DNA of 64,000 nucleotides from Gammaproteobacteria bacterium (GTDB lineage Bacteria; Pseudomonadota; Gammaproteobacteria; CBDBNL01; JAAOII01), in the NCBI GenBank assembly GCA_965209035.1, contig CBDBPY010000001.1, positions 1-64,000 of the forward strand. The letters run 5' to 3'. Shown one piece after another: positions 46,601 to 64,000 of the stretch (the first letter of the stretch is position 1; the number at the start of each line of letters is the position of its first letter). Below the pieces are notes generated by a model. That model made no database searches and was not told the DNA's origin. It saw only the letters and a list, made by a program, of their open reading frames with translations. A program made the position numbers and the translations under genes.

Positions 46601-49600
46601 ACTCCTCCGACTTGTTCCCGCCAATCGAATCGCCGCTTATCCGACTCATTATATCCTCCATCGATATCGTCGCGCGACGGCTTTTCATCACCACCTCCCG
46701 AAATTCAAAATCATCCACCGACACCGATTCCCCCGCTTCAATCATATCCGCCGACTCTTTCACTATCCCCTCCGAATAACGCCCTATCCTCTTATCCATT
46801 TCAATCAATCTTTCTCGCTCCCGCAATACCGTCCCCACAAAATCCGTCCGATTAAACGCCGTCGCCAACCGATTCAACTCATCAGACCCCCTATCCCTCG
46901 TCATCTCCAATCTCTCTTTCAACCACACCAAACGACGATAATCGTATATCGCCGTCTCGTCTTTCTCGTTCCGATTCTTTTTCGACTCCGCCCTGTCGCT
47001 TTTCTTTTTCAATTCCTTCTCTTCATCCATCAACGACAACTCCTTTTCCCATCCCCGCACCATCGGCGAACTCTTCGATATCGGCAAAAACTTCACCCGA
47101 TTCATCACCTTGTCAAACGCCGGATATGTCTCCTTATCCACCCCGAAATCATAGCCCAAATAATAAAAAATTCCACGATTCGACATCAACACATTCTTAA
47201 CCGCCTCGTTCCCATATTTGTCAAACATATCAAAACCCGACAAAAAATCCATTCCCTCCGTGTATCCCTTACCGCTCGCGCGAGTCACTCCTCCCATCTC
47301 TCTCAACTTCGACAACATCGCACCCATAAATCTCGCCTCCGTCGGATCATTCGAAACATAAGGAATCACCCGATGCGGCTTCGTAGATTGCCTTACACGA
47401 TTGCTCCGACCCAACCCCTGCGTCGCCGCCACCACCTGCCAACCGAAATCAATCGGAATGTGCGCCACCTTGCGACTCCTCACCGGCGAATCAGCGGCCT
47501 CACCCGGCAACCCCTCTCCAAATATCGTCTCCCTCGGATCGTCCCCAAGATTCAAACCCGTCGCGCCGGCGCGCGAAATTATCAAAACCTTCTTCGTGTT
47601 TATCGAATCCTCCCCCTTCGCGTTCTTACCCCAACCCCTTCTCCACAACGACATATCCTCCTTATTCGCCTTGCCTGAACGCTTCGCCACACCGCCCAAC
47701 AACTTACCATTCGCGTCAAACCTCAACATCGCCGAACGACCCGTCACCTCGCCCACCATATCACCCAAATTGCCCCGAATAATGTCTAACGGCGGCAACG
47801 GAATCCCTATCCTCTTTATCAACGACAACGCCTCCTCCCTTTCCTCGTATAGTTTCGGATCTACAAGCGACACCAAAAATGTCTTCGCGTTGATAAAATG
47901 AACGAGAGGATCAAAATCAAGCGTTCCCGCCGAACGCTTCCTTTCCTTTATCTCTCCCTTATTGTCCTTTATCGCCGGAAAAAATAACCTCACCTTCCCC
48001 GAATCCGTCAATACCTTCTCCGCCTCCACTTGCCTATAACCCCTGCCCTTTTCCGACACCGTGTAAAACTTCGTCTCCAACGACACCGATCCGTCCTTGC
48101 CAGCCACCGCGTGCTTCTTCTCAATCGGAAAAATCGCCCTCACCACATTTTCAAACGCTATCGTCGGGTTGTGATCGAACACTTCCGATATGTCGTCCCC
48201 CTCCGACAACGCCCGCAACATCGACTTCTTCAAATCCGCCTCTCCCGTCGAATCACCCTGCAAAATCACACGCATACCCTTTTTCAACATCTCCCTCACC
48301 AACCCCCCCGACTTCGGCGCAATGTGCGGCAACTTCGATTCAATCTCCAACGCCTTCTGTATCCGCGTAAATAACCCGAAAATCGCCGACCGACGAACAC
48401 CTCGATTTGCGTCCGCCTTTCTCATCTTTTCCTTTTCAATCCCCGCCGCCCACAATTGACTCTCGCTCGCTTCCTCCACCGCCCAAAATATATCCAACAT
48501 CAACTCCCCCGCCCTCTCACTCTTCAATTGCATTCTATCGTCCAATTCTATCGGATACGCCTCGTTCTCAATCCCAAACTCGCTCTGTTGCAACGACGAA
48601 AATACACCCCTCTCTTTCGCTCCCAACGCTATCCCTTCCCCTATCCCTTGCCGCGAACCCTCGTCCGATGAAACCTCACGCATTATCTCGTCCGCCGTCT
48701 CAAATGGATACTCATCACCCACCCCAAACAAGCCAAGACGCGATAAATGACCCAACGAATTCACATTCTTAATCGCCGTCCCCGATAAATATAAAACCCG
48801 CGCCCGCGGATGCCTCATCAAAAATCTCTCCATCAACTTCGCCCGCGCCGAACCCTTCAACTTCCTACCCTCTTCTTTCTCCTCTCCCAAATTACTCACC
48901 AAATGCGACTCGTCCAGCACGATTACCCCATCATAATCATTTCCCATCATCCGATTCAATTGCTCGTATCTCGCGCTCGTCTTGAACGCCGACCCCCTCG
49001 CACCCACCGAAAACGCCTCGTAAGTCAATGCGTAAAAACCATTCTCCACCACCCCCAAATCAGCGTCCGCTTTCTTGTCCCCAACCCTGATATACGACTC
49101 CCCGCTTATCGCTCCCACCGCGCTCAAATCGTCCGCCGCTTGATCTATAACCTCACGCGGCGCAAACATCACCGCCCTCTTTTGTTTCGACACTCTCATA
49201 ACCTCCCTCGCCACCAAACCCGCCAACCTCGTCTTTCCCAAACCCACACCCCAACCCGCCAAATAACCGCCGCGAACCTCAACGCTATCACCGTCCGGCA
49301 TTCCCTCCTCTCCCTTAAATTCATTCCTCAACTTCACCAATCTATCAAACGCGTCCAGCGCCTGCAATCCAATCGCCGCCTGATAATCATAAACCTGCGA
49401 TAAATCACCCCCTATCCTCGACGATTCCGCAACCAACGGCGGCATTACTCCCGCCATATTCATCGTCTCAACTATATCCGCATTCTTCGGCTTTTCCGTC
49501 GCGCCGGATATCTGATCCAACGACACTATGCTCGTCGGATCGAAACTCACAAACGAACCCTCACCCGATAAATCCCTCTGCACCCTCCTCGCCTTTGCCA

Positions 49601-52600
49601 CTTTTGCCGTCGACGATTTCTCAACCGACACCAACGGCCGCGAAACCAAAATACCATTCCCCGACCACGATAAACCATCGAAAAATCTCGCAAACACCTT
49701 ATTCACCGACGGATCTATCTCACCACCATCTCCCAGCCCAACCGAATCCTCTATCCCCCTATCCGCCAGCATCGCCGACACATAACCCGCAAAATAATCC
49801 CCCATCGCCTCCACCAACGGCTTATCCAACGCCTTCACACTCGCAACCACCTTTTCCACCTCACCCAATCCTATATCCCTGCCCCCATTCAACATCAACG
49901 ACGACAACCAACTACGCGACAAACCATATCCCGACGATAAATCTCCCACATCTCCAAAAGCCCCGCCCAATTTCAATCCCGACTTCGGCGCGCCCACCGC
50001 CGCCGCCAAATCGTGCAAGCCCACATACAATTTCCTGATCTCTTCCTTTCTTTCTCCAACCTTCATCAAACCCTTGCCCACGAAAAATTTCCTCCAATCG
50101 CTAAATCCAATCCATTCATCAATCAACTTCGCCGCGTCAGCGCCGTCAGGTATTTCCGTAGCCGATACATCCGGCGCGCCGACAAGCGACGGGCCCTCTA
50201 TTTCACCCAAATCCCCCTCATCAACGCCTTCGATTCTTTTTGCGTCCTCATCCGTCTTATCCTCCCCCACAACCCCCAAATCCAACCCCTCGCCGCGCGA
50301 ATCGCTCTTATCCTCATCTACCCCCTCATCCTCCACCAATTCGGCTAAAACGCCCTCTTTTGCAGGAGATTCCTCAACAATCGGTTTTGTCTCCTCCTTC
50401 ACCATAACCTCTCCTCTACTCTCAACCTCGCTCGCCGCCGACACCATCTCTTCATTCCCCGCCCGATAACCCAATTTCTTCATCACCACATCTCCCTTTC
50501 CCCCTCCTTTCTCAAAAACCAACACCCGAAAATCAAACTTTGCCCCCATCGACCAGTAATGCGAGCCGTCAAATAGCAGATTCGCCCGCAAGTCATCTCC
50601 CCACTTCTCAAATAATTCTCTGCCCGAATCCTTATCAGAACGCAAGGAATGACCCACTATCGCCACCATACGACCTCCATCACGCAACGACTCCAATCCC
50701 CTATCCAACATTCCAGCCGCTATCCCTGCATCGGGCGCGCGACGACTTGGCAAATCCGCCGAACGCGAAAACGGCGGATTCATAAAAACCACATCAAACC
50801 CCTCTCCACCCATCACTTTCTTAAATTCTCCCTTCGCCGATAACTGATCCTCCGGGCTTATTTCAATCTCCGATCCCGCCGGCAACACCGCACGCAAAAA
50901 TCCCGCCCTTTGCTCGTCGTATTCGTTTGCGTAAATCTTGCTCCCCGATAAAAATACCGCCAATCCCCCTGTCCCCGCCGTCGGCTCAAATGACTTTTCT
51001 CCCTTCCTCGCATTCGCCAATAAACCGCCCAAAAAAGCAATTCGCGGCGGCGTAGAATACGCCTGCATCGACTTCTTGTCCGCCGTCGTCTCCGTTTGCC
51101 GCGGCAACAAATCCTCCAAAATCCCCACCGCACCCATCTGATTCCTCGCCGCCGACCAATCCACTTCGCCCGCCGCGTCCCTCGGTATTGCCGTCAAACC
51201 CATATCCAGCAAATATCTATTCACCCCCGCCTCCAACGACTCCCACAAATCACGCGAATTTAAACCGACCGCACCCGCCGAATTCATACGATTATCCAAG
51301 TCCACCCTGTTCGATATCGGATTCTGATCCCTCATCGCTCCCGACACAACCTGATATGCCGCAGTCATCGACTCAATCATCGACTCCGGCGCATCTCTCA
51401 TCTCCTCCAACCCTTTCTCCTCCTCATAAATCCCCGAATTCAACGCCGCCCTCGCCCTCGCCGCAAATCCCGACATCGCCCCCTCCCATACATCAACCGA
51501 CGACATCTCAATCAACAAATCCGACATCTCGTCAACCGATAACGACCACGCCAAAAACGCAGGCCCGCCGCCCCTCTTACCGCGCGGCTCGAATATCCTC
51601 TTACCCCTCCATTTCGGAATCGAGTATTCCCCCGATCTCCACTGCTCCCTATTCATCGCCCAAAAATCACGCACAACGCCGCGCAACCCACCGCCGCGCC
51701 CGAACACCCACTCCGACACGCTCGCCGAATCTCGCAATTCCAACATAGCCGAATTGTCATCAACCGCAGGCGTTTCGCCGGCCACCTCCACATCTCCCTC
51801 GTCCGGCGCCACCGGCAAATCTTTCGCAAGTGTTTCATCCACTTCGACCTCCGACTCCTCCGACCGCGACGATTCGTTATCCGACAAAACCTTTTCCTCC
51901 TGATTCTTTACCCCGCCCGTCCAAACTTCAATCGGATTAAACTCTCCCTCCTCATAACCAACCACCCCATCTTCACCAGATCCAATATGAAACGATCGCT
52001 TTCTTTCCTCTTTTTCTTCCTCCCGACTAGTATACGATACCTCACCCGAATAATACTTCGGCTTAACCACCACCAACATATCTTCCGCGATAAACGATAT
52101 CGCCTCCAACCCATTCAAAAACACATCGACCTCCGACTTTCCACGCGCTTTCGCCAACTCTCCAATCGCCCGCAAATATCTCGCGTCGACATAAACATCA
52201 GCCCTTTCGTATTCTATCCGCGCCGTTCCCCACTCCATTTTTGGCTTCGAATCTTTATTCTCTCGACGATCCTCTTTCTTAATGCCAATAAGATACCTCG
52301 TATCCTGCACGAAACGCGCCGTCGCCTTTTTCGGAATAACCCGCTCGATTTCTTCCTGATTGTAAAAAGCCACATCGAAATCAACTTCCCCGTTTTTCCG
52401 AAACATAAAACCATCATCCGGCGCGCCGTCCAATGTAGGAATACCAGACACCAACGCCATCGCCTGTTCGTCCGTTGCAACCGCCCGCCCAGCCACGAAA
52501 TATATGCCGCCAAGACTCATTTTTTTCAAATCGCCCTTATTATCAGCCGAAAACAAAAACATCGCCCGCCGCGTCTTTTCGTTCGCCTTGTCCGCCTCCA

Positions 52601-55600
52601 CCGCCGCCGATAGACGCGCACCCTTGTCCGCGTTATCAATCTCCTCTTGCTCTCGCTCGCTCCACATATTCCGTCCGTCGCTCTCCACATTGTCGTCGCC
52701 GCCCTCGGTTTTCTCCTCATTCTCCTCGATCGACTCGATCGACTCGATCGGCTCGCCTGATATCATCTTTTTCCAATCCTCAACCGGCCGAAAATCACCC
52801 CAATTTATCTCAACGAGCAACTTGATAGCCCCCGACTTATTTATATTGTCATCGCTTTGCACCATATCTCCCAACGCCTTGTTGCCCGAAAAAATAAACA
52901 CGCGGTGGTATTCTTCTCTCGCCCGCTCGATTTTTCCCTGCTCGTAAAAACCTATCTTGCTGATATATCCCCACCCCTCATCTCCCACCAAATCATACAC
53001 CATCCGCAAACTACGCGAATCCAACGCAAAAAACTCTTTGCCATCTTCTCCCACAAACGAATAAACATCATTGCCAACCTCTATTTTTCCGTTCAAACCA
53101 ACCTTTACTTTTCCTTCCAACGAAGGCAATCTAAACCTAAACACCGCGCTTTTAACGAAATCCGAATACGAATCAACGCCCTTTTCTCCCGCCTCAAATT
53201 CACCAAGCGTTGCGTCGCCGCGAACACCAACCGAAACTTTCGGATTACTCCTGCTCCCCGACAACTTTATCGTCAAACCGCCTTGCCGCTCGCCATCGAA
53301 GTAATCGTTATCCATATCCATTTTCGGCAACCCGCCAACAGCCGCGTTTGATCCCCCATATCTCGCCCAAGCCAAACCGCCCAACTCATCGAAAAAATCA
53401 TCGGTGTGGCTTATCTCCCAATCACGCGAAAAAGGAGTCAATCGCTTTCGCGCTGACGCAACTTCGGGTTTTAATATGAAGGCGATCGCCTGTTTTCTTT
53501 TAATGCCTGCCTTCGTTTTAGGCGGCTCTTCCTCATCTTTCGCCTTCTCCTCCGCCGACTCCTCTTTCACCGTCTCCTCCGCCGGCGCAACCGGCGGCGC
53601 AACCGATTCCGACACGATTACCCGCTTCTTCCCTCGCTTCTCCACTTTGAGACCAATCGCCTCCGCAACCGCTCCATCAGTTTGCTCGAACGCCACTCCC
53701 CGATTTTTCAAGTAAGACCAAAATTCCTTTTCTTCTCTCCCCTCAAAATTCGGAAGCACAGCCGCCGCATATTTAACCGCCGCCGCATTCGCCTCCTCAA
53801 TCGACCCCGAAAAATTCGCAATCGCCATCGCGCGATTTATCACATCTTCGCCTGCGCCATCATAACCCTGCGCCGACAGCAAATCCAACCACTCCGACCT
53901 CTCCGGCTTTCTTCCCTCCGAATCCAACACCGCGCCGATCGCCTCGTCCCGGCCATCCTCGACATATTCCGTTGCGGCGAGATCGTCGCTCGCCCCGTCC
54001 CCCAATTTATCGATTCTTTGATATTCCGCCAAAAATTCCTTAGCCTCATTCGAATCTGTGGTATTATCGGGCTGGATTTTCGCTTCGCGCCCACCTCCTT
54101 CTCCATCTCCTCGCGAAGTGGAAATCCCTTTTTTCCCCTTAACAATCCTCCCCGACGCTCTCGCGCCGCGCGCCTTGTCCGTCGCCTCCAAAATCGAATC
54201 CAACGCCTTCGCGCCAGTATCTCCCACGCTTTCCGCAAACTGCCGCAATGCCTCCTCGCCGCCCCTTCTCGCTTTGACGAACGCCCGACCCGCCGCCGCC
54301 AATCCCTCGTCGCCCCCAAATTCTTCCCGCGCCGCGTCCGTTGCCGAACCCAATTTTTCATCCACTCGGCGATACTTTTTCGCTCTCCAAACCGCGTGTC
54401 GAGGATGAACGCGGAAACTCGGCGGAACATAGCGACCATCACTAGCCGCCGCCAACTCCGCCCAATCACTCTCGATTTCAATCATCATCGATTCCAACCG
54501 CTCCAATCTCCCCGCCTTTTTCTCCCCTCCGCCTTTTTTCTCCGCCGCGCGAGCCGTTGCCCTATTTTTCACGCCTGCAACCGCCGATTCACCCGATCTC
54601 AATTCGCCCGATAATTTTTCATATCCCTCGATATTCGAGCGCAATCTCTCATCAATCGATTCCATTCCCGACGGCGGGCGACGCGAATCCAACAACCCCG
54701 ACACCAATCCCCGCGCACTGGCCGGAATCGCCGCCAAACCCTTTTTTACATAATCCGGCGCAACTTTCACAATCGCCGCCTCGACATCTTTCACACCACC
54801 AGACCAATTTTCCCCAAGTTGCGATTGCAGACCAGCCACAAAATTTCCGCCGCCGTCCTCACTTTTTCGATCCATCGCCGCAACCGCCGCCGCAAGCGAT
54901 TCCCGCGCCACGTCCGCCGTCGCACCCGGAACATAACCCATCGCCTCCTTGTCCGTCATCGAACTCGGCTTCGCGCCCGACAAAAGCGCGCCGCGTATCG
55001 CCGTCGCCAACTCCGCCGCCGCCCGCTCGTCCGCCCCGCTCGCAATCGCCTCGGCCGACAATTCACCAGCAATATCGCCGGCCCTCGAAACGCGCAACGC
55101 CGCATCCGTCGTTCCCCTTTTCGCCGCCCTCTCCGCTCTCTTATCCCCCAACCGCTTCGCCGCCTTCGCGCCCAAGCCAACGCCCGCCGACACAACCTCC
55201 GCGCTCGCGCCACCGCCCAAACCCCCTGCAAAACCCGCCGTCGCAGAAATCGCAATCTCCTCCGCCGTCGGAAAATCACCAGCCGCAACCGCCCCCGCAA
55301 ACAATTCCGCCGTCTCCTCCGCCGCTTCCTGCCCGGGCTCGAACAAAATCCCCGTCGCTCCACGTGAAACAGCAGGGTAAATTCTACCGCCAAGACCACC
55401 TAAAACCGCCCCCGCTCCGCCGCCAAGAGCCCAAGCAAGAGGCAGGCGCCTGCTTATCTCCGCTTCTCCAACTCCCGCAGTCCTCAATCTTTCCCTCGCT
55501 TCGTCGGCACTAAACGCACCAGACAAAGCACCACCAAAAGTTGCCGCTCCTCCCGCCGGAGACGACAACGCCGTTCCCGCTTTTTGTAGCGCCGTTCCCT

Positions 55601-56210
55601 TTTTCGCCAACGATAAAGCCGCTCCTGCACCGCGAATCGCACCAATTCCAGCGATAGAAAACGGCAAACTTCCAACGCCTTGACCGAGCGCATACTTAAA
55701 ATGATTCGGATTGATCCCACCATCCTCAAAAAACGGCCTCGCCTTCTGCCCCGCCGTATGTGCGTCTTCCTCGACAACATCAACTCCGTCCCCAAATGCC
55801 GCATCGTAAAAATCTTTCGGCAAAGCCAAACCTCTCTTGACTCCCTCACCAAAACTTTCTTTTCCCGATTCCAATAATTCAATGTCTCCCCATCCGCCGT
55901 TTCCATTAGACGGACTCACACCAACAACATCAAATCCGTCGTCCCTGTCCACGATCCCCCAAACCACATTTACCCCTTTCGCATCCGCGAAATCAACTAT
56001 TGCTTGGCCAGTATTCGCGTTTATCGGGATTATAGGTATATTTTTTGCGTCATCGGCGATATCAAGCCGGAATCCGTCGAGCCCGCTCCGCAACTTTGGC
56101 TTTGCTCGCCTTCGACCGCCTGCGGAATATCGATTCCGGATATCACTGGCGATTTGAGGAGCGCTTTGAGACAAGTCAATCGGGGTAATCGGTTCGGGCA
56201 TAAAATTCAT
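43671..56210 (-). CDS. Giant polyvalent DarB-like virion protein (N6-MTase, Strawberry-notch SF2 helicase, metallopeptidase, ADP-ribosyltransferase-like)
   Basis: EPTAGTG/FMNPPF; GWGVGLGKTR, LDESH, YLSGT, SRAGATGLNL, QGLGRSNR; LAHEIGH; NHRT..F..FD...FYFSS...KNPL...GHDAVIF. True start possibly ATG 56201. Confidence 0.88.
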   Translation of the reverse strand: MNFMPEPITPIDLSQSAPQIASDIRNRYSAGGRRRAKPKLRSGLDGFRLDIADDAKNIPIIPINANTGQAIVDFADAKGVNVVWGIVDRDDGFDVVGVSPSNGNGGWGDIELLESGKESFGEGVKRGLALPKDFYDAAFGDGVDVVEEDAHTAGQKARPFFEDGGINPNHFKYALGQGVGSLPFSIAGIGAIRGAGAALSLAKKGTALQKAGTALSSPAGGAATFGGALSGAFSADEARERLRTAGVGEAEISRRLPLAWALGGGAGAVLGGLGGRIYPAVSRGATGILFEPGQEAAEETAELFAGAVAAGDFPTAEEIAISATAGFAGGLGGGASAEVVSAGVGLGAKAAKRLGDKRAERAAKRGTTDAALRVSRAGDIAGELSAEAIASGADERAAAELATAIRGALLSGAKPSSMTDKEAMGYVPGATADVARESLAAAVAAMDRKSEDGGGNFVAGLQSQLGENWSGGVKDVEAAIVKVAPDYVKKGLAAIPASARGLVSGLLDSRRPPSGMESIDERLRSNIEGYEKLSGELRSGESAVAGVKNRATARAAEKKGGGEKKAGRLERLESMMIEIESDWAELAAASDGRYVPPSFRVHPRHAVWRAKKYRRVDEKLGSATDAAREEFGGDEGLAAAGRAFVKARRGGEEALRQFAESVGDTGAKALDSILEATDKARGARASGRIVKGKKGISTSRGDGEGGGREAKIQPDNTTDSNEAKEFLAEYQRIDKLGDGASDDLAATEYVEDGRDEAIGAVLDSEGRKPERSEWLDLLSAQGYDGAGEDVINRAMAIANFSGSIEEANAAAVKYAAAVLPNFEGREEKEFWSYLKNRGVAFEQTDGAVAEAIGLKVEKRGKKRVIVSESVAPPVAPAEETVKEESAEEKAKDEEEPPKTKAGIKRKQAIAFILKPEVASARKRLTPFSRDWEISHTDDFFDELGGLAWARYGGSNAAVGGLPKMDMDNDYFDGERQGGLTIKLSGSRSNPKVSVGVRGDATLGEFEAGEKGVDSYSDFVKSAVFRFRLPSLEGKVKVGLNGKIEVGNDVYSFVGEDGKEFFALDSRSLRMVYDLVGDEGWGYISKIGFYEQGKIERAREEYHRVFIFSGNKALGDMVQSDDNINKSGAIKLLVEINWGDFRPVEDWKKMISGEPIESIESIEENEEKTEGGDDNVESDGRNMWSEREQEEIDNADKGARLSAAVEADKANEKTRRAMFLFSADNKGDLKKMSLGGIYFVAGRAVATDEQAMALVSGIPTLDGAPDDGFMFRKNGEVDFDVAFYNQEEIERVIPKKATARFVQDTRYLIGIKKEDRRENKDSKPKMEWGTARIEYERADVYVDARYLRAIGELAKARGKSEVDVFLNGLEAISFIAEDMLVVVKPKYYSGEVSYTSREEEKEERKRSFHIGSGEDGVVGYEEGEFNPIEVWTGGVKNQEEKVLSDNESSRSEESEVEVDETLAKDLPVAPDEGDVEVAGETPAVDDNSAMLELRDSASVSEWVFGRGGGLRGVVRDFWAMNREQWRSGEYSIPKWRGKRIFEPRGKRGGGPAFLAWSLSVDEMSDLLIEMSSVDVWEGAMSGFAARARAALNSGIYEEEKGLEEMRDAPESMIESMTAAYQVVSGAMRDQNPISNRVDLDNRMNSAGAVGLNSRDLWESLEAGVNRYLLDMGLTAIPRDAAGEVDWSAARNQMGAVGILEDLLPRQTETTADKKSMQAYSTPPRIAFLGGLLANARKGEKSFEPTAGTGGLAVFLSGSKIYANEYDEQRAGFLRAVLPAGSEIEISPEDQLSAKGEFKKVMGGEGFDVVFMNPPFSRSADLPSRRAPDAGIAAGMLDRGLESLRDGGRMVAIVGHSLRSDKDSGRELFEKWGDDLRANLLFDGSHYWSMGAKFDFRVLVFEKGGGKGDVVMKKLGYRAGNEEMVSAASEVESRGEVMVKEETKPIVEESPAKEGVLAELVEDEGVDEDKSDSRGEGLDLGVVGEDKTDEDAKRIEGVDEGDLGEIEGPSLVGAPDVSATEIPDGADAAKLIDEWIGFSDWRKFFVGKGLMKVGERKEEIRKLYVGLHDLAAAVGAPKSGLKLGGAFGDVGDLSSGYGLSRSWLSSLMLNGGRDIGLGEVEKVVASVKALDKPLVEAMGDYFAGYVSAMLADRGIEDSVGLGDGGEIDPSVNKVFARFFDGLSWSGNGILVSRPLVSVEKSSTAKVAKARRVQRDLSGEGSFVSFDPTSIVSLDQISGATEKPKNADIVETMNMAGVMPPLVAESSRIGGDLSQVYDYQAAIGLQALDAFDRLVKLRNEFKGEEGMPDGDSVEVRGGYLAGWGVGLGKTRLAGLVAREVMRVSKQKRAVMFAPREVIDQAADDLSAVGAISGESYIRVGDKKADADLGVVENGFYALTYEAFSVGARGSAFKTSARYEQLNRMMGNDYDGVIVLDESHLVSNLGEEKEEGRKLKGSARAKLMERFLMRHPRARVLYLSGTAIKNVNSLGHLSRLGLFGVGDEYPFETADEIMREVSSDEGSRQGIGEGIALGAKERGVFSSLQQSEFGIENEAYPIELDDRMQLKSERAGELMLDIFWAVEEASESQLWAAGIEKEKMRKADANRGVRRSAIFGLFTRIQKALEIESKLPHIAPKSGGLVREMLKKGMRVILQGDSTGEADLKKSMLRALSEGDDISEVFDHNPTIAFENVVRAIFPIEKKHAVAGKDGSVSLETKFYTVSEKGRGYRQVEAEKVLTDSGKVRLFFPAIKDNKGEIKERKRSAGTLDFDPLVHFINAKTFLVSLVDPKLYEEREEALSLIKRIGIPLPPLDIIRGNLGDMVGEVTGRSAMLRFDANGKLLGGVAKRSGKANKEDMSLWRRGWGKNAKGEDSINTKKVLIISRAGATGLNLGDDPRETIFGEGLPGEAADSPVRSRKVAHIPIDFGWQVVAATQGLGRSNRVRQSTKPHRVIPYVSNDPTEARFMGAMLSKLREMGGVTRASGKGYTEGMDFLSGFDMFDKYGNEAVKNVLMSNRGIFYYLGYDFGVDKETYPAFDKVMNRVKFLPISKSSPMVRGWEKELSLMDEEKELKKKSDRAESKKNRNEKDETAIYDYRRLVWLKERLEMTRDRGSDELNRLATAFNRTDFVGTVLRERERLIEMDKRIGRYSEGIVKESADMIEAGESVSVDDFEFREVVMKSRRATISMEDIMSRISGDSIGGNKSEESYFFAVNRLGNPVAVVVWERDVTGYYRRPQMAGVDNTVVDAVRIVSPDGRESFREYSEGEIERLKKGKDGGKNLPMRAGEYKSGDKIFKEAWSERMESKSFAVSRKLVIPFGGDTLRQWKRLKKKTPGVSGSDSSLRLRQFTTRGGETFVGVWLRGKMESAAREMMSGKDTGLSMSAEELMKGVDNGETAIFETMRISSVGSGASRYYKIDPGATAVESDLSFLGDGWELMRNGRKVWGRSKSRGSVMRILEMKSGLVRLLGSGGVERFSIPRGVIGDKPFWEVTDEGAKKLGELEDGVINIRKIWIENGWRSQVRGIFPRDYFHNLADTKLLEYDGAGGYPEIVPDEDQINKITAKLRDKFQELLEYASEWRSMLEDEYDRLLEEEDYSKSEIRELKSDAKKTEKYAVKMIKEEMAKIRYANRWFRKKWPSDERYSIPSRDNYTARERRRFTDAAPVFFATADGDGSVVVGERVEARLPAKVILAEYPNVVRSMSDSGKAEVYAAHGGVERWKDAVEAIDPKKKRESLRIAGRLNEFFEGSGMRDSFGLDLRIQSDGGRGGGSFDPAARVIKIALDLESSEGEEEAMSTLAHEIGHVFYEHLSGRDRERVEEMMPEWKKRYGADIKRSVEETKSRNPGVSDWSWLEEEEAFGYAIQDWHRKGGDGIISRIMRFLRRLSGWLRREGLSSADEAADLFSRVLRGDVKIEDLSGGRARKIREMGGVSGGLVFSIPPPKKAIDENGKYNPNLDPRLKYAPLSNEIWNHRTNEEFPDFDIRKTKTASHFYFSSTPGGETMYGKRLIRARIAAKNPLVIGDLFEGVRDDGTFGPIDPPPWLKEWALSEYGDEVSDYESDYDREERENSGIDDDSAIDDDDGNSDDERERTDEQKKRAALQLFWEDTGTLYQSGGRGRQDSLINEALGNGHDAVIFPDIGKSDEESGIESAHTSLALEDPLLIINADTGEQMSAAGNQVGEE

Positions 56211-59568: not shown

Positions 59569-59604
59569 GTTTCAATCCACCCCCGCCCTGCGGCGAGGAA
59601 AAAC
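59569..59604 (-). CRISPR. Solitary CRISPR repeat-like unit, type I-C-like
   Basis: GTTTTTCCTCGCCGCAGGGCGGGGGTGGATTGAAAC: 8-bp hairpin followed by the 11-nt TGGATTGAAAC handle typical of I-C repeats; intergenic. Confidence 0.7.
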
Positions 59605-60096: not shown

Positions 60097-60281
60097 CTCG
60101 GCAACCCCTCGCCAGCAAAAACGCGGCAAATGCTTCCACGATGATCGACAAACCAAGATTTGGGAGCAGGGCGCGGCGGGTTTCGCGCGTCATCGATCAA
60201 CGCCTTAAACGATGTCATCGCTTCGCCGATTGTCTCGTCGGCATCTACCGATTCGGGTTTTGTGTTGGGGTTTTTTTCCAT
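60093..60281 (-). CDS. Small hypothetical protein (repeated-leader gene D)
   Basis: MEKNPN... behind the conserved leader. Confidence 0.6.
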   Translation of the reverse strand: MEKNPNTKPESVDADETIGEAMTSFKALIDDARNPPRPAPKSWFVDHRGSICRVFAGEGLPR

Positions 60282-60365
60282 TTTGATTTTCCTCATTTTT
60301 GGATTTTTCGACGATCGGAATATCGCCGTTATTGAGATTTTACACCCAAAAAAAAGACAAGTCAA
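60279..60365 (-). promoter_or_regulatory. Promoter, hairpin and conserved RBS leader (copy D)
   Basis: TTGACT-17-TAAAAT, hairpin CGGCGAT/ATCGTCG, AAATCCAAAAATGAGGAAAATCAAAATGG. Confidence 0.78.
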
Positions 60366-60403: not shown

Positions 60404-60528
60404 ATTGTCGTAAGGCCGATAAAGCGGTGAATTTCCATTTCATCTCCTCTCGGTGGATTAATTGATTCGGGGCGGTTTTCTTGCGATAACCCGATTAAAA
60501 AGAGACGGCTTCGGCCGTCTCTTTTTTT
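60404..60528 (+). ncRNA. Candidate ~125-nt small RNA with anti-SD loop
   Basis: Plus-strand GTGATATAAT at 60388-60397; terminator GAGACGGC-TTCG-GCCGTCTC-T7 at 60502-60528; folds with closing stem TTGTCGTAAGG/TCTTGCGATAA. Confidence 0.65.
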
Positions 60529-60542
60529 GATCCGCGCGGCGG

Positions 60543-60821
60543 TCATCGTTTCGGCGCGCGCGGTCGTTTTTTGGCGGCTCGCTCGCGCGGCATAAACACT
60601 ATGCGCCATTCGTCGCCGACACGCTCGCATTCGACGAAAATATCCACCTTAAACCCCAACTTTTTCGCCGCCGCTTTAAGTAATCCATCGCAACCTTTCA
60701 GCATACTGACAAAATCGCTCGCTATTATGCCGCCGTCGGCGCGCCCGCTTTTGAAAACAAGCACCATTTTTTCGCCTTCCTGTAAGCAGGCGGCGGCTTC
60801 GCGGGGGGTCGGTAAACTCAT
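60543..60821 (-). CDS. Hypothetical protein
   Basis: ATGA-coupled ORF. Confidence 0.55.
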   Translation of the reverse strand: MSLPTPREAAACLQEGEKMVLVFKSGRADGGIIASDFVSMLKGCDGLLKAAAKKLGFKVDIFVECERVGDEWRIVFMPRERAAKKRPRAPKR

Positions 60822-61036
60822 CGATCACCCTTGCGGATTTTGTCGGAATTGATGAGGACTTTTAACGGCAGAATCGCGGCATCGATCCGCTGAACGGCGA
60901 TAGCGTCGCCTTTTTTGTCGGCGCTCCTGCGCTCGAATTTCATCGCGTCCAGCGCCGCGACCAACTTATTGGCGGTTATTTGGTCGAGAGTGTGAATCCT
61001 TTTTATTTCAAAAATGGTCGGGGTTGTGGCTTTCAT
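60818..61036 (-). CDS. Hypothetical protein
   Basis: TGATG-coupled ORF. Confidence 0.55.
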   Translation of the reverse strand: MKATTPTIFEIKRIHTLDQITANKLVAALDAMKFERRSADKKGDAIAVQRIDAAILPLKVLINSDKIRKGDR

Positions 61037-61242
61037 CAGCCAAACGCCCATACCGCGAGTGCGGCAACGGCAATTCCCAATGCAAGAAGAGACGAGTTAA
61101 ATATAACTCCTACTATCCCGCAAAGTTTTTCCAGATCCGGAATGATTTTTTCATTCCGATATCTCAAAAGATGACAAGCAACGATGAGAGAAGTAATCAT
61201 CGAGCCGATTAAAAGCCCGATGAAGAAAATCAAACCGCTCAC
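61036..61242 (-). CDS. Small two-TM membrane protein
   Basis: Two hydrophobic helices; GTGA coupling. Confidence 0.55.
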   Translation of the reverse strand: MSGLIFFIGLLIGSMITSLIVACHLLRYRNEKIIPDLEKLCGIVGVIFNSSLLALGIAVAALAVWAFG

Positions 61243-61676
61243 TCTTGCCCCTCGATTTGCGCCGACGATCCCACGACAGAGTTATACGCCGCGTCGTGCC
61301 GATCGCCCGCCGTCGCCTTGCGGATAACTTCCTTTGGAAAAATTTCGATGAAAAAACTTCCGCCGATAACACCCCGACAAAATATATCCGGAGACAACTC
61401 TCCATTATCTCTAATTGCGCTGACGGTCATCAGCGGGCCGCCCGACTTCAGGCAGACAACATCGCCCGCCTTAAATTTGTCGGCTTGTGATAACACAAAA
61501 CGATCGCCCACTTTGAGCGGACACTTGCACCAAATATATCCAACGCCGCCGCCAAGATTTTTCGCATTTGGCGCGGGATAAACGGCAGAGTCGTATTCGG
61601 CGACGAGTTCTTGAATGTAGAGGATTTTTCCTTCTACATCGTGATAGGCCAAATAGCCGTTAGGGTTGCTTTCCAT
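61239..61676 (-). CDS. YodC/DUF2158-domain protein (repeated-leader gene E)
   Basis: FKAGDVVCLKSGGPLMTV. Confidence 0.7.
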   Translation of the reverse strand: MESNPNGYLAYHDVEGKILYIQELVAEYDSAVYPAPNAKNLGGGVGYIWCKCPLKVGDRFVLSQADKFKAGDVVCLKSGGPLMTVSAIRDNGELSPDIFCRGVIGGSFFIEIFPKEVIRKATAGDRHDAAYNSVVGSSAQIEGQE

Positions 61677-61760
61677 TTTGATTTTTCCTCGTTTTGGATT
61701 TTTGGAGATCCAGCGCCTCCATTTATTTTCGATTATACGCTCTTTTCGTCCGTTTTTCGA
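61674..61760 (-). promoter_or_regulatory. Promoter, hairpin and conserved RBS leader (copy E)
   Basis: TCGAAA-17-TATAAT, hairpin TGGAGG/TCTCCA, AAATCCAAAACGAGGAAAAATCAAAATGG. Confidence 0.72.
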
Positions 61761-62116
61761 GTCCGCGATTTCGGGTCGCGCGGCGGGATTTTATCGAGGA
61801 TTGATTCCAAAATCGCCTCCATTTTTTTGATTTCTTTCTTGACTTCCTCGATCTCTTCGTGCGCCGATTTTGTGGAATCTCGCAATTTCTTGATTACGCC
61901 GTTCGCTCCTCTAAGCCAAGGCAACATAAATACAAGCCGCCAGCCCTGCGACAACGAAAACCCAACGCCCCAAACTATCGCCAGCGCGACGGCGATTGCG
62001 AGAATCGCCCGCAACGCCGGAAACGGCGAAAGGACGGCAAATAAATCCTCGAACGCCATAATAAGGCGGTCGATAATATCCAAAGCAAATTGCTCGTTCG
62101 GCGTTTCGTCTCTCAC
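61733..62116 (-). CDS. Membrane protein with coiled-coil C-terminus (holin-like candidate)
   Basis: TM segment followed by a charged coiled coil. Confidence 0.55.
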   Translation of the reverse strand: MRDETPNEQFALDIIDRLIMAFEDLFAVLSPFPALRAILAIAVALAIVWGVGFSLSQGWRLVFMLPWLRGANGVIKKLRDSTKSAHEEIEEVKKEIKKMEAILESILDKIPPRDPKSRTRKTDEKSV

Positions 62117-62264
62117 AGCCAATCCCCTGCTTCATCGCGGCGGCGATTTCTGATCGATTCCTCCAATCCCAAATCCAGCGCGTCGCCTTGCGGATAGCGT
62201 TCTGGAATAAAGAGCTTGCGCGGCTTGCAGTCCCTTTTTTGTAGCCAATGGCGGTGCGCTCTAT

Positions 62265-62312
62265 CCGCTTCGCTTTCCGCTTCGCTTTCCGCTTCGCTTT
62301 CCGCTTCGCTTT
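62265..62312. repeat. Tandem repeat (CCGCTTCGCTTT)x4
   Basis: Four exact 12-bp copies abutting the mini-array. Confidence 0.95.
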
Positions 62313-62410
62313 GTAATAAACCTGCGCCTGCCCGCAATCCACAACTATATCGTCGGCGGAGCGGTGCGATGAGAGATTTTAATAAACCTGTGCCTGCCGC
62401 AATCCACAAC
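62310..62410 (-). CRISPR. Mini CRISPR array, type II-C-like: repeat(35)-spacer(30)-repeat(36)
   Basis: GTTGTGGATTGCGGCAGGCACAGGTTTATTAAAAT (62376-62410), spacer 62346-62375, GTTGTGGATTGCGGGCAGGCGCAGGTTTATTACAAA (62310-62345). Confidence 0.75.
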
Positions 62411-62422
62411 TGTTGCATCGTT

Positions 62423-62527
62423 TTATCGCCCGAAAACCTTTTTGATTTTGTCGATTGCGTTCGCCCACAAAATGACAATCGCCAACAAGAGCGTGCCGAA
62501 AACCCCTTTGACGGATTGCAGGTTCAC
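62423..62527 (-). CDS. 34-aa single-TM peptide
   Basis: GTGA-coupled to the Tad1-like gene; VFGTLLLAIVILWANA. Confidence 0.45.
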   Translation of the reverse strand: MNLQSVKGVFGTLLLAIVILWANAIDKIKKVFGR

Positions 62528-63018
62528 CGCTCCAACTTGCCTTCCACGCCGCGCTTTACGCGGTCGCGGCGGCGGCTCGCAAGGGCTTCGATTGCTTCCT
62601 TTGCCTTTTCGATCGCAAGCGCGTTTTCGTCGCAAGCGAATTTTCCGTCTTGGAAAATTTTAACCGGCGCAATAGCGGCGGCGATAAGGGCTTCGGGCGT
62701 TATGCCGTTGAGTTGCGGGTCTTTGTCGGGCGTGATATTGCCTTGCCGCGCGACAACTCGATCGAGCAGGTCGATGGTGAATTTTTGGATTTTGACAATA
62801 TCGTCGCGCGACGAATTTGAGGGGTTATTCGCAATGAAGGCAAGGGCATCAGCATCCGAAAGATACGCCTTGTCTGGCGGCAAAATGAAAAAATCGATTT
62901 TGTCGCCGCCGGGTTCTCCTTCGGCAACAGCCGAATAAAATCCGATAATCCGCGCGTTGGCGGGGGAGACGGCGCGATGGTCGCTGATTATGGAGAGGTG
63001 GAGAGGGAGGTTTGCCAT
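62524..63018 (-). CDS. Tad1/Acb2-family anti-defence sponge-like protein
   Basis: GEPGG...NGITPEALI...FQDGKFACDENALA....EA...L..RR.DR..RGVEG matches the Tad1 helical hairpin (FQAGPF..RENA.AL..EEA..W..RR..DR..R.V.G). Confidence 0.75.
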   Translation of the reverse strand: MANLPLHLSIISDHRAVSPANARIIGFYSAVAEGEPGGDKIDFFILPPDKAYLSDADALAFIANNPSNSSRDDIVKIQKFTIDLLDRVVARQGNITPDKDPQLNGITPEALIAAAIAPVKIFQDGKFACDENALAIEKAKEAIEALASRRRDRVKRGVEGKLER

Positions 63019-63036
63019 TTTTGACTCCTGTGTTGT

Positions 63037-64000
63037 TTATTCGCTCGGCGGGATTTCGTCGGCGGGCGCTTCGGCGGGCGCTTCGGCGGCTTCCAATCGC
63101 AAGACGAGTCCGTTCGCTCCTTGCGAGGGCGTAATGTCGGCTGTGCCAGGGGCTATGGTAGCGGCGGCGATTCGCGCGATCTCGGAATTGTCGCCCGCGT
63201 CGAGAATCACAGCGATTTGCGCCGTGTGATTCTCGATTCGAATCCAAGTCGCGCCGCCTGCGCCGACGGGCGAGGCGATGGAAACGCCGCGCTCGAAACT
63301 TGGCGCGCACAGGTGGGCTTCGGAATGGATATCGCCGCTCGCGTCGATGGCGAAAATGTCGGCTGGAATGCCGAAAGAATTGGAATCTTCGGCGACGGTG
63401 ATAGTCGCGCCGCCGCTTTTTGCGATGACATTGATTCCAACTGCGGCATCAAGCGCCCACGCTTCGGCGGCGGCTTCGGCGGCTCCGGTCTGGTCGGCGA
63501 AAGTATCGTATTCGCTGTAATTCGTTCGGGAACGCTCGCGGCGAATGACTCCAAGAACATACTCCGCGCTCCCTGTGGCGGCTTTGATTGCGGTAATCAG
63601 CGGCGCAATGTCGGATTCGCAAATGGCGCGCGCTTTGTGTCCGGCGTGAGTCCGCTCGGCAATAGCGAGGATTCGATCGGCGACGAAAGGGGTGAAACGG
63701 AATAAATCCGAACTGGCGGGGAGATTGTGATTTACTCCCACATTGTCGATTGCGGCGATGAGCGCGAGCATAATGCGGGCGTGAAACGCGCTGTGCTTGG
63801 CGTTGCTGTTCTCCCGCGCGGCGCGATGTTCTTCGCTCCCGCCGTGCGCCAAACGCGCGAGGATTCCTGCGCGCCGTGCGCTTCCGATTCGGGCGTTTTC
63901 GTCCGCGTCGGTTCGTGCGAAAAGATGACGCTCGATTTTGGATTGCGACAATCGCGGAACGATTTGGCCTGTCGGCAAGCCCGCTTCGTCGAAAGTCAAG
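63037..64000 (-). CDS. C-terminal part of a large virion/tail-fibre-like protein entering from the right edge
   Basis: Frame is open to the window edge; Ala-rich, with codon usage like the 1-3527 ORF. Confidence 0.6.
   Translation of the reverse strand, partial: LTFDEAGLPTGQIVPRLSQSKIERHLFARTDADENARIGSARRAGILARLAHGGSEEHRAARENSNAKHSAFHARIMLALIAAIDNVGVNHNLPASSDLFRFTPFVADRILAIAERTHAGHKARAICESDIAPLITAIKAATGSAEYVLGVIRRERSRTNYSEYDTFADQTGAAEAAAEAWALDAAVGINVIAKSGGATITVAEDSNSFGIPADIFAIDASGDIHSEAHLCAPSFERGVSIASPVGAGGATWIRIENHTAQIAVILDAGDNSEIARIAAATIAPGTADITPSQGANGLVLRLEAAEAPAEAPADEIPPSE

What the first reader, a model, noticed from the sequence alone, without database searches (positions are those of the whole stretch)
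62346..62375. Mini-array spacer is antisense to codons for YIVGGAVR, the CCA-adding enzyme signature
Seen: the plus strand of the spacer reads TAT ATC GTC GGC GGA GCG GTG CGA = Y-I-V-G-G-A-V-R over exactly the 24 nt next to the downstream repeat. The match breaks in the 6 nt right after the -10 box, which II-C crRNAs do not transcribe. Established: Y(L/I)VGGAVRD is the N-terminal motif of class II tRNA nucleotidyltransferases and poly(A) polymerases. Inference: hijacked Cas9 is aimed at the 5' end of a cca/pcnB-type gene of the host (shut-off or repression) or of a competing phage. Coincidence is possible.
Basis: partly seen in the sequence, partly recalled or inferred. Interest (0 to 1): 0.85.

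Follow-up and report, generated by a model that had tools for sequence, protein, structure and literature searches.

The report
Phage mini-CRISPR array, cca-like guide
A 66-kb phage carries a one-spacer copy of a Cas9-type CRISPR array that also occurs, full-sized, in another organism of the same sample, and its 24-base guide is the exact antisense of the codons for YIVGGAVR, the signature of CCA-adding/poly(A) polymerase genes, but no exact target was found.

Summary
On the + strand, 62346-62369 reads TAT ATC GTC GGC GGA GCG GTG CGA, which is YIVGGAVR. It lies in a 30-nt spacer between two about 35-nt direct repeats on a complete 65.7-kb phage contig (C2).

The decisive new evidence came from public runs of the source sample. 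They hold contigs in which this same repeat flanks at least 8 other spacers of about 30 nt. These contigs are 2.5-4 times deeper than the phage in one run. The phage unit is therefore a true mini-CRISPR array.

The full repeat is 36 nt and ends in TACAAT. It resembles repeats next to cas9-cas1-cas2 loci in the same bacterial class, matching 19 of its first 20 nt to one of them. The upstream phage repeat is degenerate but keeps a -10-like box. The downstream repeat is intact. The motif fills exactly the 24 nt that a Neisseria-type II-C crRNA would carry.

Two limits remain:
- The co-assembled chromosome (C1) has no Cas9 and not this repeat; it has a Cas12a-type array. Its cca gene matches only 21/24, with two mismatches in the PAM-proximal six.
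- No exact protospacer exists in three large collections. The best matches are 23/24, all in cca/pcnB-type genes of unrelated bacteria.

The target family is plausible, but the target itself is unknown. This is a new variant of a known kind.

The parts
62376..62410 (-). Upstream repeat of the mini-array. It is degenerate, with a 1-nt deletion and 2 substitutions relative to the downstream repeat. On the minus strand it reads GTTGTGGATTGCGGCAGGCACAGGTTTATTAAAAT and ends in the -10-like hexamer TAAAAT. Its proposed role is promoter only.
   Evidence: Base 62376 is assigned to the repeat because all 8 other spacers in the sample end in A before the repeat. Its RNA fold is no better than shuffles.
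62370..62375 (-). Promoter-proximal 6 nt of the spacer (minus strand CTCTCA). They do not continue the nucleotidyltransferase motif. Under the II-C model they lie upstream of the transcription start.
   Evidence: In all 14 bacterial matches, 5-7 of the 7 bases after the 24-mer differ.
62346..62369 (-). 24-nt guide part of the spacer. The minus strand reads TCGCACCGCTCCGCCGACGATATA. The + strand reads YIVGGAVR.
   Evidence: Near matches occur only in cca/pcnB-type genes.
62310..62345 (-). Downstream repeat. Bases 62311-62345 (35 nt) show no variant letters against the repeat of a multi-spacer array present in the same sample. The 36th base is A here, where the array has T (TACAAA instead of TACAAT). 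This is the part that would pair with a tracrRNA.
   Evidence: tables 2, 3, 5c. Resemblance to repeats beside cas9 genes.
62261..62308 (.). Four tandem copies of a 12-nt unit directly after the downstream repeat. Function unknown.
   Evidence: (D1)
62116..62424 (-). 309-nt module holding the mini-array, the tandem repeats and a 145-nt tail. One low-depth contig of run X1 skips it. By my reading of the sequence, the junction fuses the 34-codon upstream ORF in frame to the next gene.
   Evidence: table 5 (depth 3.1 against about 16; one contig, side 30, so weak)
59569..59604 (-). Solitary copy of a second, type I-like CRISPR repeat (GTTTTTCCTCGCCGCAGGGCGGGGGTGGATTGAAAC). It forms an 8-bp hairpin with a free tail. 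It is a candidate RNA anti-CRISPR or crRNA-like RNA.
   Evidence: The matching array repeat is seen in the sample (table 7).
61796..61824 (.). Phage stretch that, in a contig of run X3, stands between two copies of that type I-like repeat. It is therefore a spacer against this phage in some organism of the sample.
   Evidence: table 7 (loose ends at 61795 and 61825) and table 2 (extra depth in bins 61670-61903)

Best explanation
This is a virus-borne mini-CRISPR array of the Cas9 (II-C-like) kind. It sits on a complete 65.7-kb phage that has no cas genes.

Proposed working (inferred):
1. The degenerate upstream repeat serves only as a promoter, through its -10-like box TAAAAT.
2. Transcription starts about 6-7 nt into the 30-nt spacer.
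3. The RNA then carries a 24-nt guide followed by the intact downstream repeat.
4. That repeat pairs with the tracrRNA of the true host and loads onto its Cas9.

The true host is an organism of the same sample that carries a long array with the identical repeat. It is not the chromosome C1 that shares the assembly with the phage.

The guide is the exact antisense of the YIVGGAVR codons of a class II nucleotidyltransferase gene (cca/pcnB family). The phage therefore most likely aims the host's Cas9 at such a gene. That gene could lie on a competing phage or plasmid, which is the usual use of viral mini-arrays. It could also be the host's own copy. The actual target was not found.

Shown: the array is genuine, the repeat family fits, the motif is exact, and near matches fall in this gene family. 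Inferred: the promoter, the transcription start, loading on Cas9, and any effect on a target.
For: (1) C2 is a phage. It has a terminase large subunit, a portal, an internal virion protein, and RecT-like and Gam-like proteins. The contig ends overlap by 7 nt and a long ORF closes across the junction.

(2) One search shows the repeat in real arrays. The repeat bin has depth 13,262 against about 84-125 for the phage flanks in run X3, and 150 against about 16 in run X1. Seven different spacers in X3 lie between two copies of the repeat, at depths 405, 276, 262, 250, 244, 62 and 4. One more lies in X4, which belongs to another study.

(3) Of 20 Cas9 loci fetched from the same class, 18 have an array. 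Nine of these 18 arrays read GTTGTGA... at one end and ...TTA(C/T)A(C/A)T(C) at the other. The closest repeat, G310 (locus L067), shares 19 of the first 20 nt and 26 of 36 overall. It sits in a cas9-cas1-cas2-array locus.

(4) The pattern of decay fits the model. The upstream repeat is mutated in its body but keeps a -10-like hexamer. The downstream repeat shows no variant letters against the array's repeat over 35 nt.

(5) The motif occupies exactly the 24 nt next to the downstream repeat. The natural NmeCas9 guide is 24 nt. II-C repeats hold promoters that start transcription inside spacers.

(6) The chance of the exact 8-mer in a 30-mer is about 2e-9.

(7) The degenerate scans expect about 0.1 random hits in genome contigs (my calculation). 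They gave 8 hits, and the metagenome scan gave 6. All 14 are followed by Asp and lie in nucleotidyltransferase-like context.

(8) The phage also carries a solitary copy of a second CRISPR repeat from the same sample. It is itself hit by a spacer of that second array. So it does live with CRISPR-bearing hosts.
Against: - No exact protospacer was found in IMG/VR, 185,579 species genomes or JGI metagenomes. The best matches are 23/24, in scattered phyla.
- blastn against 50,697 phages and 72,556 plasmids gave nothing with an E-value below 0.2.
- The last 6 nt of the spacer match no nucleotidyltransferase gene. The spacer is therefore not a plain copy of such a gene.
- No Cas9, tracrRNA or anti-repeat exists in the assembly. 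The Cas9 of the presumed host was never seen.
- The repeat was not found by exact or gapped pattern in genome contigs, metagenome contigs or viral contigs.
- The consensus scan did not call a promoter in the upstream repeat. There is no extended -10 TG and the -35 is weak.
- My degenerate patterns varied only at third codon positions. A one-mismatch protospacer in an unrelated gene would have been missed in the large collections.
- None of the 8 array spacers seen matches the window.
Confidence: 0.55

Rival explanations
1. Decoy or counter-defence RNA. The unit was captured from the host's array. It works mainly by occupying Cas9 and tracrRNA, or by silencing a cas or defence promoter through partial pairing. 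This would resemble the viral crRNA-like RNAs (Cracr, vsgRNA) and the solitary-repeat RNA anti-CRISPRs. On this reading the cca-like content of the spacer is a passenger.
For: - The phage carries a second CRISPR-derived element, a solitary type I-like repeat. That is the form described for RNA anti-CRISPRs (abstract in the listing; review passages).
- Phages are reported to hijack Cas proteins with crRNA-like RNAs in order to silence cas genes.
- No exact target for the guide was found.
- The spacer is not a full 30-nt copy of any nucleotidyltransferase gene.
Against: - A passenger spacer would have no reason to keep exactly the 24 transcribed bases in frame with the motif while the 6 untranscribed bases differ.
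- No PAM-proximal seed of 11 nt or more occurs in 535 kb of Cas9 loci of relatives. The true host's locus could not be tested.
- The reported type II viral regulators derive from tracr-L, not from repeat-spacer-repeat units (discussion passage).
Confidence: 0.22
2. Coincidence. The spacer was taken from some unrelated phage or plasmid sequence and happens to translate as YIVGGAVR in one of six frames.
For: - All six frames of the spacer except the motif frame are open.
- The match stops at a stop codon where every real gene seen has Asp or Asn.
- No exact target was found.
- The scan that produced this finding read very many windows, so rare coincidences are expected somewhere.
Against: - The probability is about 2e-9 per spacer for the exact 8-mer.
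- In 2.24 Mb read in six frames, even a loose form of the motif occurs only in the two real genes and here.
- The motif is flush with the repeat-proximal end, at the natural guide length.
Confidence: 0.12
3. The target is the cca gene of the co-assembled chromosome C1, and the effect is host shut-off or repression in that bacterium.
For: C1 cca begins MKAKRYIVGGAVRD. It matches the guide at 21/24, and all three differences are synonymous. It is the only place in C1 within 3 mismatches. Across the 40 relatives searched there was one other hit within 3 mismatches, in G039; I did not examine its gene context.
Against: - C1 has no Cas9. It has only a Cas12a-type array (88 repeats) and one Cas1.
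- C1 has no copy of the phage's repeat.
- Two mismatches lie at positions 3 and 6 from the PAM-proximal end.
- Unrelated bacteria match better, at 23/24.
- None of the 85 C1 spacers matches C2. blastn finds no shared DNA between C1 and C2.
Confidence: 0.04
4. Not an RNA element at all. The repeats would lie inside a 101-codon minus-strand ORF (ATG 62418 to TGA 62113) whose stop overlaps the next gene's GTG start.
For: The ORF is open. There is a GTGA overlap at 62113-62116. The 3' parts of the two repeats are 66 nt apart, so they are in frame.
Against: - The identical repeat flanks unrelated spacers in other contigs of the sample.
- The two copies are read in different frames over their first 14 nt.
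- The codon-usage score of the repeat part is negative, at -0.25 per codon.
- The ORF has no Pfam hit.
Confidence: 0.03

Closest known systems
Virus-borne mini-CRISPR arrays (Medvedeva et al. 2019, PMC6858448: abstract in the search listing only; review PMC11656645: passages read)
   Same: One or two spacers lie between repeats identical to those of a host array. The virus has no cas genes. The idea is that the virus borrows the host's Cas proteins.
   Different: The published cases mostly aim at related viruses, and the validated one is archaeal. Here the repeat is Cas9-type with a promoter-in-repeat layout, the upstream repeat is decayed to a promoter, and the guide looks like a housekeeping-family gene. 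No related-virus target was found.
Neisseria meningitidis type II-C CRISPR, with processing-independent crRNAs (Zhang et al. 2013: paper not held; content taken from review PMC5965381 and bioRxiv 10.1101/172650, passages read)
   Same: The repeat is 36 nt and ends in a -10-like TACAAT. Spacers are 30 nt. The guide is 24 nt. The repeat family is found beside cas9-cas1-cas2.
   Different: The element sits on a phage, without cas9 or tracrRNA. There is no extended -10 TG. The transcription start was not measured.
CRISPR spacers of huge phages that target host transcription and translation genes (Al-Shayeb et al. 2020, PMC7162821: passages read)
   Same: A phage-encoded spacer is aimed at a core host gene (sigma-70, glycyl-tRNA synthetase). 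Some of those phages have host-like repeats and may use the host's Cas proteins.
   Different: Those matches were to bacteria of the same sample, with at most 1 mismatch. Here no such match could be shown. This phage is 66 kb, not huge, and has a single spacer.
Viral crRNA-like regulators (Cracr; vsgRNA for type II) and RNA anti-CRISPRs (Racr) (bioRxiv 10.1101/2024.10.29.618823: outline, section 7 and passages read; PMC10651486: abstract in the listing only)
   Same: Phage RNAs built from CRISPR repeats capture host Cas proteins. The solitary type I-like repeat at 59569-59604 has the Racr form.
   Different: Cracr RNAs pair partially with cas or toxin promoters and were catalogued for types I and V-A. 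The type II examples derive from tracr-L. Here a full-length 24-nt guide resembles a nucleotidyltransferase gene.

Membership tests
Virus-borne mini-CRISPR array | Repeat-spacer-repeat unit on a viral genome | tested here: met
   Two repeats and one 30-nt spacer. Phage hallmark genes are present on the contig.
Virus-borne mini-CRISPR array | Repeat identical or nearly identical to that of a cellular CRISPR array the virus meets | tested here: met
   The 35-nt downstream repeat shows no variant letters against contigs carrying 8 other spacers in runs of the same sample and of one other study. The carrier organism is unknown.
Virus-borne mini-CRISPR array | No effector or adaptation genes on the virus | tested here: met
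   The Cas9 model finds nothing on C2. The Cas1 model hits only C1. The 10 largest unexplained ORFs have no PADLOC or Pfam hit. The smaller ORFs were not all scanned.
Virus-borne mini-CRISPR array | Spacer matches a target (usually a related virus) | tested here: not met
   No exact match was found. The best is 23/24, in bacterial cca/pcnB-type genes. The phage and plasmid collections gave nothing significant.
Type II-C CRISPR array | 36-nt repeats and 30-nt spacers of the family found beside cas9-cas1-cas2 | tested here: met
   Similarity: 9 of the 18 Cas9-adjacent arrays share both termini, and the best shares 19 of the first 20 nt. That locus is cas9-cas1-cas2-array.
Type II-C CRISPR array | cas9 and tracrRNA in the same cell | tested here: not met
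   Not met in the assembly: no Cas9 and no anti-repeat. For the true host this is not testable with these tools.
Type II-C CRISPR array | Promoter inside each repeat, with transcription starting in the spacer | tested here: inconclusive
   The -10-like hexamers TACAAT (array) and TAAAAT (phage upstream repeat) are present. The consensus scan called no promoter there. No RNA data are available.
Cracr / crRNA-like regulator | PAM-proximal pairing of 9 bp or more to a cas or toxin promoter of the host | not testable with these tools
   The host locus is not in hand. In 535 kb of Cas9 loci of relatives there is no seed of 11 nt or more, and 10-nt seeds occur at the chance rate.
Racr (solitary repeat unit), for 59569-59604 only | Single copy of a host-like repeat on a virus, folding like the repeat | tested here: met
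   One copy in the window. It has 2 mismatches in 35 nt to the array repeat seen in the sample. The hairpin has z = -2.9. Activity was not tested.

The most novel reading that the evidence does not exclude
The phage reprogrammes its host's Cas9 with a 24-nt guide laid on the most conserved catalytic-motif codons of the host's CCA-adding enzyme or poly(A) polymerase. The guide is antisense to the mRNA. It could therefore act as a roadblock on the coding strand, or through the PAM-independent RNA cleavage reported for II-C Cas9 (passage). The effect would be to shut down tRNA 3'-end repair or RNA polyadenylation during infection. Placing the guide on an invariant motif would keep it effective across host strains.
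Probability: 0.13. Interest if true: 0.85.

Novelty: new variant of a known kind. Interest (0 to 1): 0.62.

Why it matters
Viral mini-arrays are known mainly as weapons between related viruses. RNA decoys are known as anti-CRISPRs. This case adds three points.

1. A Cas9-type mini-array in which the upstream repeat has decayed into a bare promoter, while the guide and the tracr-pairing repeat are kept. That is a natural minimal guide-RNA gene.
2. A guide whose only recognisable relatives are genes of a core RNA-maturation enzyme family.
3. The same phage also carries a solitary repeat of a second CRISPR type, and that second system already targets it.

If the target proves to be the host's own cca or pcnB, it would be a clear example of a small phage using borrowed Cas9 to control host RNA metabolism. 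The finding also shows that the phage contig was probably assembled together with the wrong chromosome. This matters for host assignment.

Tried and rejected
- Repeat searches. Exact or gapped patterns found nothing in viral contigs, genome contigs or metagenome contigs. Searches with up to 3 mismatches found nothing in 40 relatives or in the 12 genomes of G310's family.
- Protospacer in 5 Cas9-bearing genomes: 0 within 3 mismatches.
- Relatives of the phage. None came from one neighbouring protein in IMG/VR, 3.5 kb of DNA against 50,697 phages, or the portal protein against the same phages. In 400 genomes of the class the portal gave only one weak hit, E 1.7e-9. No comparative test of the locus was therefore possible.
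- Host link by spacers. None of the 85 C1 Cas12a-type spacers matches C2. None of 706 spacers from 18 Cas9-adjacent arrays of relatives matches C1 or C2 beyond 16-20 nt. None of the 8 sample spacers matches the window. Three of them have no exact 24-nt match in IMG/VR, so no PAM could be derived.
- The type I-like repeat was not found in 400 genomes of the class.
- The codon-usage test of the 101-codon ORF was weakly discriminating.
- Rfam and tRNA scans of the window found nothing.
- Neighbouring small ORFs have no informative family.
- C2 has no nucleotidyltransferase gene, so a self-target is excluded. The C1 pcnB-like gene matches only 16/24.
- Expression: no RNA holder listed. Run X5 held none of the stretch.
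- Not used: structure prediction, complex prediction, the search for homologous proteins and the search of protein representatives. No protein question was decisive.
- Paper supplements were not asked for. The supplementary tables of Al-Shayeb 2020 and of the Cracr preprint may list comparable host-gene-targeting or type II cases that I could not see.
Full report
WHAT IS THERE

The window is the first 64,000 bases of a 65,717-bp contig (C2, GC 54%). C2 shares a two-contig assembly with a 2.18-Mb chromosome (C1, GC 49%).

C2 is a phage. Nearly all long ORFs lie on the minus strand. PHROG profiles identify a large terminase, a portal, an internal virion protein, RecT-like and Gam-like proteins, and a DNA methyltransferase. 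The contig ends share 7 bases and a 1,185-codon frame closes across the junction, so the genome is probably complete. The phage has no detectable relatives in 50,697 deposited phage genomes, by DNA or by portal protein.

At 62311-62345 and 62377-62410 there are two direct repeats. The second has one base deleted and two substituted. Between them lies TATATCGTCGGCGGAGCGGTGCGATGAGAG(A). The first 24 bases translate on the + strand as YIVGGAVR, followed by a stop.

IS IT A CRISPR UNIT?

The assembly gives no support by itself:
- C1 has no copy of the repeat.
- The Cas9 model finds no Cas9 (one 22.6-bit HNH-like hit, below the 100-bit cut-off).
- The only CRISPR system in C1 is a pair of arrays with 88 repeats ending in ...AATTTCTACTGTTGTAGAT, next to a Cas1 gene. 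I recognise that repeat ending from recall as the Cas12a type. I did not run a Cas12a model.
- None of the 85 spacers of those arrays matches C2.

The answer came from public sequencing runs. Three runs of one sample hold 94-96% of the sampled words of the stretch. Laying their contigs on 60500-64000 gave these results:
- The bin that contains the repeat has depth 13,262 in run X3, against about 84-125 for the phage on either side. In run X1 it is 150 against about 16.
- Contigs run from the end of the repeat, through 28-31 other letters, back into the start of the repeat. Seven such spacers appear in X3, at depths 405, 276, 262, 250, 244, 62 and 4. One more appears in X4, a run of a different study.
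- Further loose ends at 62311 and 62345-62348 look like more spacers.
- All eight spacers end in A on the + strand.

From this I conclude that the real repeat is 36 nt. On the minus strand it reads GTTGTGGATTGCGGGCAGGCGCAGGTTTATTACAAT. Spacers are 30 nt.

The ratio of array depth to phage depth differs strongly between X1 and X3. The array therefore sits on a replicon other than the phage. A genuine multi-spacer array with this repeat lives beside the phage in the sample, and the phage carries a one-spacer copy of it.

WHICH TYPE?

I searched the Cas9 model in 400 genomes of the class to which C1 belongs. Thirty-seven have a Cas9 above cut-off, including one of the same family as C1. I fetched 20 of these loci, and 18 hold an array.
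- Nine of the 18 repeats read GTTGTGA... at one end and ...TTA(C/T)A(C/A)T(C) at the other. All are 36-37 nt long, with spacers of about 30 nt.
- The closest repeat, in genome G310 (locus L067), shares 19 of its first 20 bases with the phage repeat and 26 of 36 overall.
- In G310 the array follows directly on cas9, cas1 and cas2, with no room for a fourth gene. This is the minimal II-C layout.

The phage repeat therefore belongs to a repeat family that goes with II-C-like Cas9 loci in this class. The Cas9 of the actual carrier was never seen, so the type rests on repeat likeness only.

HOW THE UNIT IS BUILT

In the Neisseria II-C system, promoters lie inside the repeats and transcription starts within the spacers (review passages). 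The natural guide is 24 nt (preprint passages).

Read on the minus strand, the phage unit fits this layout in three ways that I could check in the sequence:
1. The upstream repeat is damaged in its body (a deleted G, and G to A). It still ends in the -10-like hexamer TAAAAT. Its only remaining use would be as a promoter.
2. The downstream repeat is the part that would pair with a tracrRNA. It shows no variant letters against the array's repeat over 35 nt, and only its last base differs (TACAAA for TACAAT). That change would weaken a read-out promoter, as is usual for a terminal repeat.
3. The nucleotidyltransferase motif fills exactly the 24 bases next to the downstream repeat. The six bases next to the -10 box do not continue it.

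Against this, the simple promoter scan did not call the site, there is no TG before the hexamer, and no RNA data exist.

WHAT THE GUIDE RESEMBLES

Chance is a poor explanation for the motif. The probability is about 2e-9 per 30-mer under the phage's base composition. In six-frame translation of the whole 2.24-Mb assembly, even the loose pattern [ILV]VGG[ACS][VIL]R occurs only in the cca gene, in a pcnB-like gene and in this spacer.

Scans of the large collections could use only exact or IUPAC patterns. I allowed variation at third codon positions.
- In 185,579 species genomes there were 8 hits, 4 with one mismatch and 4 with two.
- In JGI metagenomes there were 6 hits, 4 with one mismatch and 2 with two.
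- In IMG/VR the exact 24-mer was absent. A looser pattern gave 10 hits with 3-5 mismatches.
- The exact 24-mer is covered by all these patterns and occurs nowhere.

By construction every hit encodes YIVGGAVR. What is not built in is the context. All 14 bacterial hits lie in long open frames, continue with Asp, and show cca- or pcnB-like context. Nine of the 10 viral hits continue with Asp or Asn in such a context.

The hits come from Spirochaetaceae, Anaerolineae, Caldilineaceae, cyanobacteria, Methylophilus, Hydrogenophaga, Rhodocyclaceae and others. A 23/24 match therefore says 'this gene family', not 'this organism'.

An unconstrained blastn of the 30-mer against deposited phages ranked six annotated CCA tRNA nucleotidyltransferase genes first by coverage. 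Their E-values are about 2, and nothing was significant. The plasmid search was the same.

In none of the 14 bacterial hits do the bases after the 24-mer match: 5-7 of 7 differ.

THE CO-ASSEMBLED CHROMOSOME IS NOT THE TARGET

The cca gene of C1 starts MKAKRYIVGGAVRDKLLG. It matches at 21/24, and the three differences are synonymous. They lie at positions 3, 6 and 15 counted from the PAM-proximal end, so two are in the PAM-proximal six.

C1 lacks Cas9 and the repeat, it shares no DNA with C2, and unrelated bacteria match better. I conclude that C1 is neither the host that supplies Cas9 nor a privileged target. The phage contig probably stands in this assembly by co-occurrence.

A SECOND CRISPR ELEMENT AND A HOST LINK

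Loose ends show a contig of X3 in which the phage stretch 61796-61824 stands between two copies of a different repeat (GTTTTCCCTCGCCGCAAGGCGGGGGTGGATTGAAA...). That is a spacer against this phage in a type I-like array of some organism of the sample. I call it I-C-like only from recall of such repeats.

That repeat is absent from C1. Its one near copy in the assembly lies on the phage itself, at 59569-59604 on the minus strand, with 2 mismatches in 35 nt. It folds into an 8-bp hairpin with a free tail.

A solitary host-like repeat on a virus is the form described for RNA anti-CRISPRs (listing abstract; review passages). The phage therefore carries two CRISPR-derived RNA elements, and one of the two matching systems is seen to target it. 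This strengthens the reading that it lives in a CRISPR-rich host that is not C1. It also keeps open the rival reading that the mini-array is chiefly a counter-defence device.

RIVALS

- The 101-codon ORF that runs through the repeats is rejected, because the repeat is shared with real arrays.
- Coincidence is unlikely but cannot be excluded without the true protospacer.
- A decoy or regulator function (Cracr- or vsgRNA-like) is the main rival. It does not explain why exactly the 24 transcribed bases keep the motif.

WHAT IS KNOWN

Three kinds of element are already in print:
- Viral mini-arrays with host-identical repeats that target related viruses (listing).
- Phage CRISPR spacers against host sigma-70 and glycyl-tRNA synthetase genes.
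- Phage crRNA-like RNAs that silence cas genes.

My four literature searches did not turn up a Cas9-type viral mini-array with a nucleotidyltransferase-like guide. I did not search specifically for 'cca' or 'nucleotidyltransferase' together with 'spacer', and supplements were closed. I therefore claim only a new variant of a known kind.

VERDICT

- Observation: confirmed.
- Interpretation: partly supported. The hijack design and the target family are plausible. The target, the host and the effect are unknown, and the chromosome in the assembly is excluded as the Cas9 source.

Noticed in passing
window 59569-59604 (- strand): A solitary copy of a type I-like CRISPR repeat, with a strong hairpin. 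It matches (33 of 35) a repeat seen in an array of the same sample. It is a candidate RNA anti-CRISPR or crRNA-like RNA. A terminator-like hairpin follows at about 59487-59471 (-).
   Followed up: partly
window 61796-61824: In run X3 this phage stretch stands between two copies of the type I-like repeat. Some organism of the sample therefore carries a spacer against this phage. That organism is not C1.
   Followed up: partly
window 62116-62424: One low-depth contig of run X1 (depth 3 against about 16) skips these 309 nt. By my reading, the junction fuses the 34-codon membrane-like ORF (GTG 62527 to TAA 62423) in frame to the next gene (GTG 62116). The mini-array module may therefore be an insertion that split a gene. 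The evidence is weak: one contig.
   Followed up: no
G000:C1:1956422-1963278: C1 carries two arrays with 88 repeats of a Cas12a-type repeat, next to Cas1 at 1955076-1955852. One spacer (1959405-1959436) matches C1 itself 32/32 at 2062514-2062545, which may be a self-target or a prophage.
   Followed up: no
window 43671-56210 (- strand): A single 4,179-codon ORF takes up a fifth of the phage genome. It was not scanned against any library. The 10 largest other unexplained ORFs have no Pfam or PADLOC hit, and most long ORFs have no PHROG hit.
   Followed up: no
window 60264-60311 and 61659-61706: A 48-nt block is repeated at 81% identity. On the minus strand it spans a ribosome-binding site and the first codons of two small genes. 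Contigs of runs X1, X3 and X4 break there.
   Followed up: no
L062 (G001:C1:745000-751700): A genome of the same family as C1 has a 1,290-codon Cas9 and an array of at least 102 repeats. The repeat begins like the phage's and ends in TTAAAAT. II-C-like systems therefore occur in this family, although C1 lacks one.
   Followed up: partly
window 62261-62308: Four tandem copies of a 12-nt unit lie directly after the downstream repeat. No explanation.
   Followed up: no
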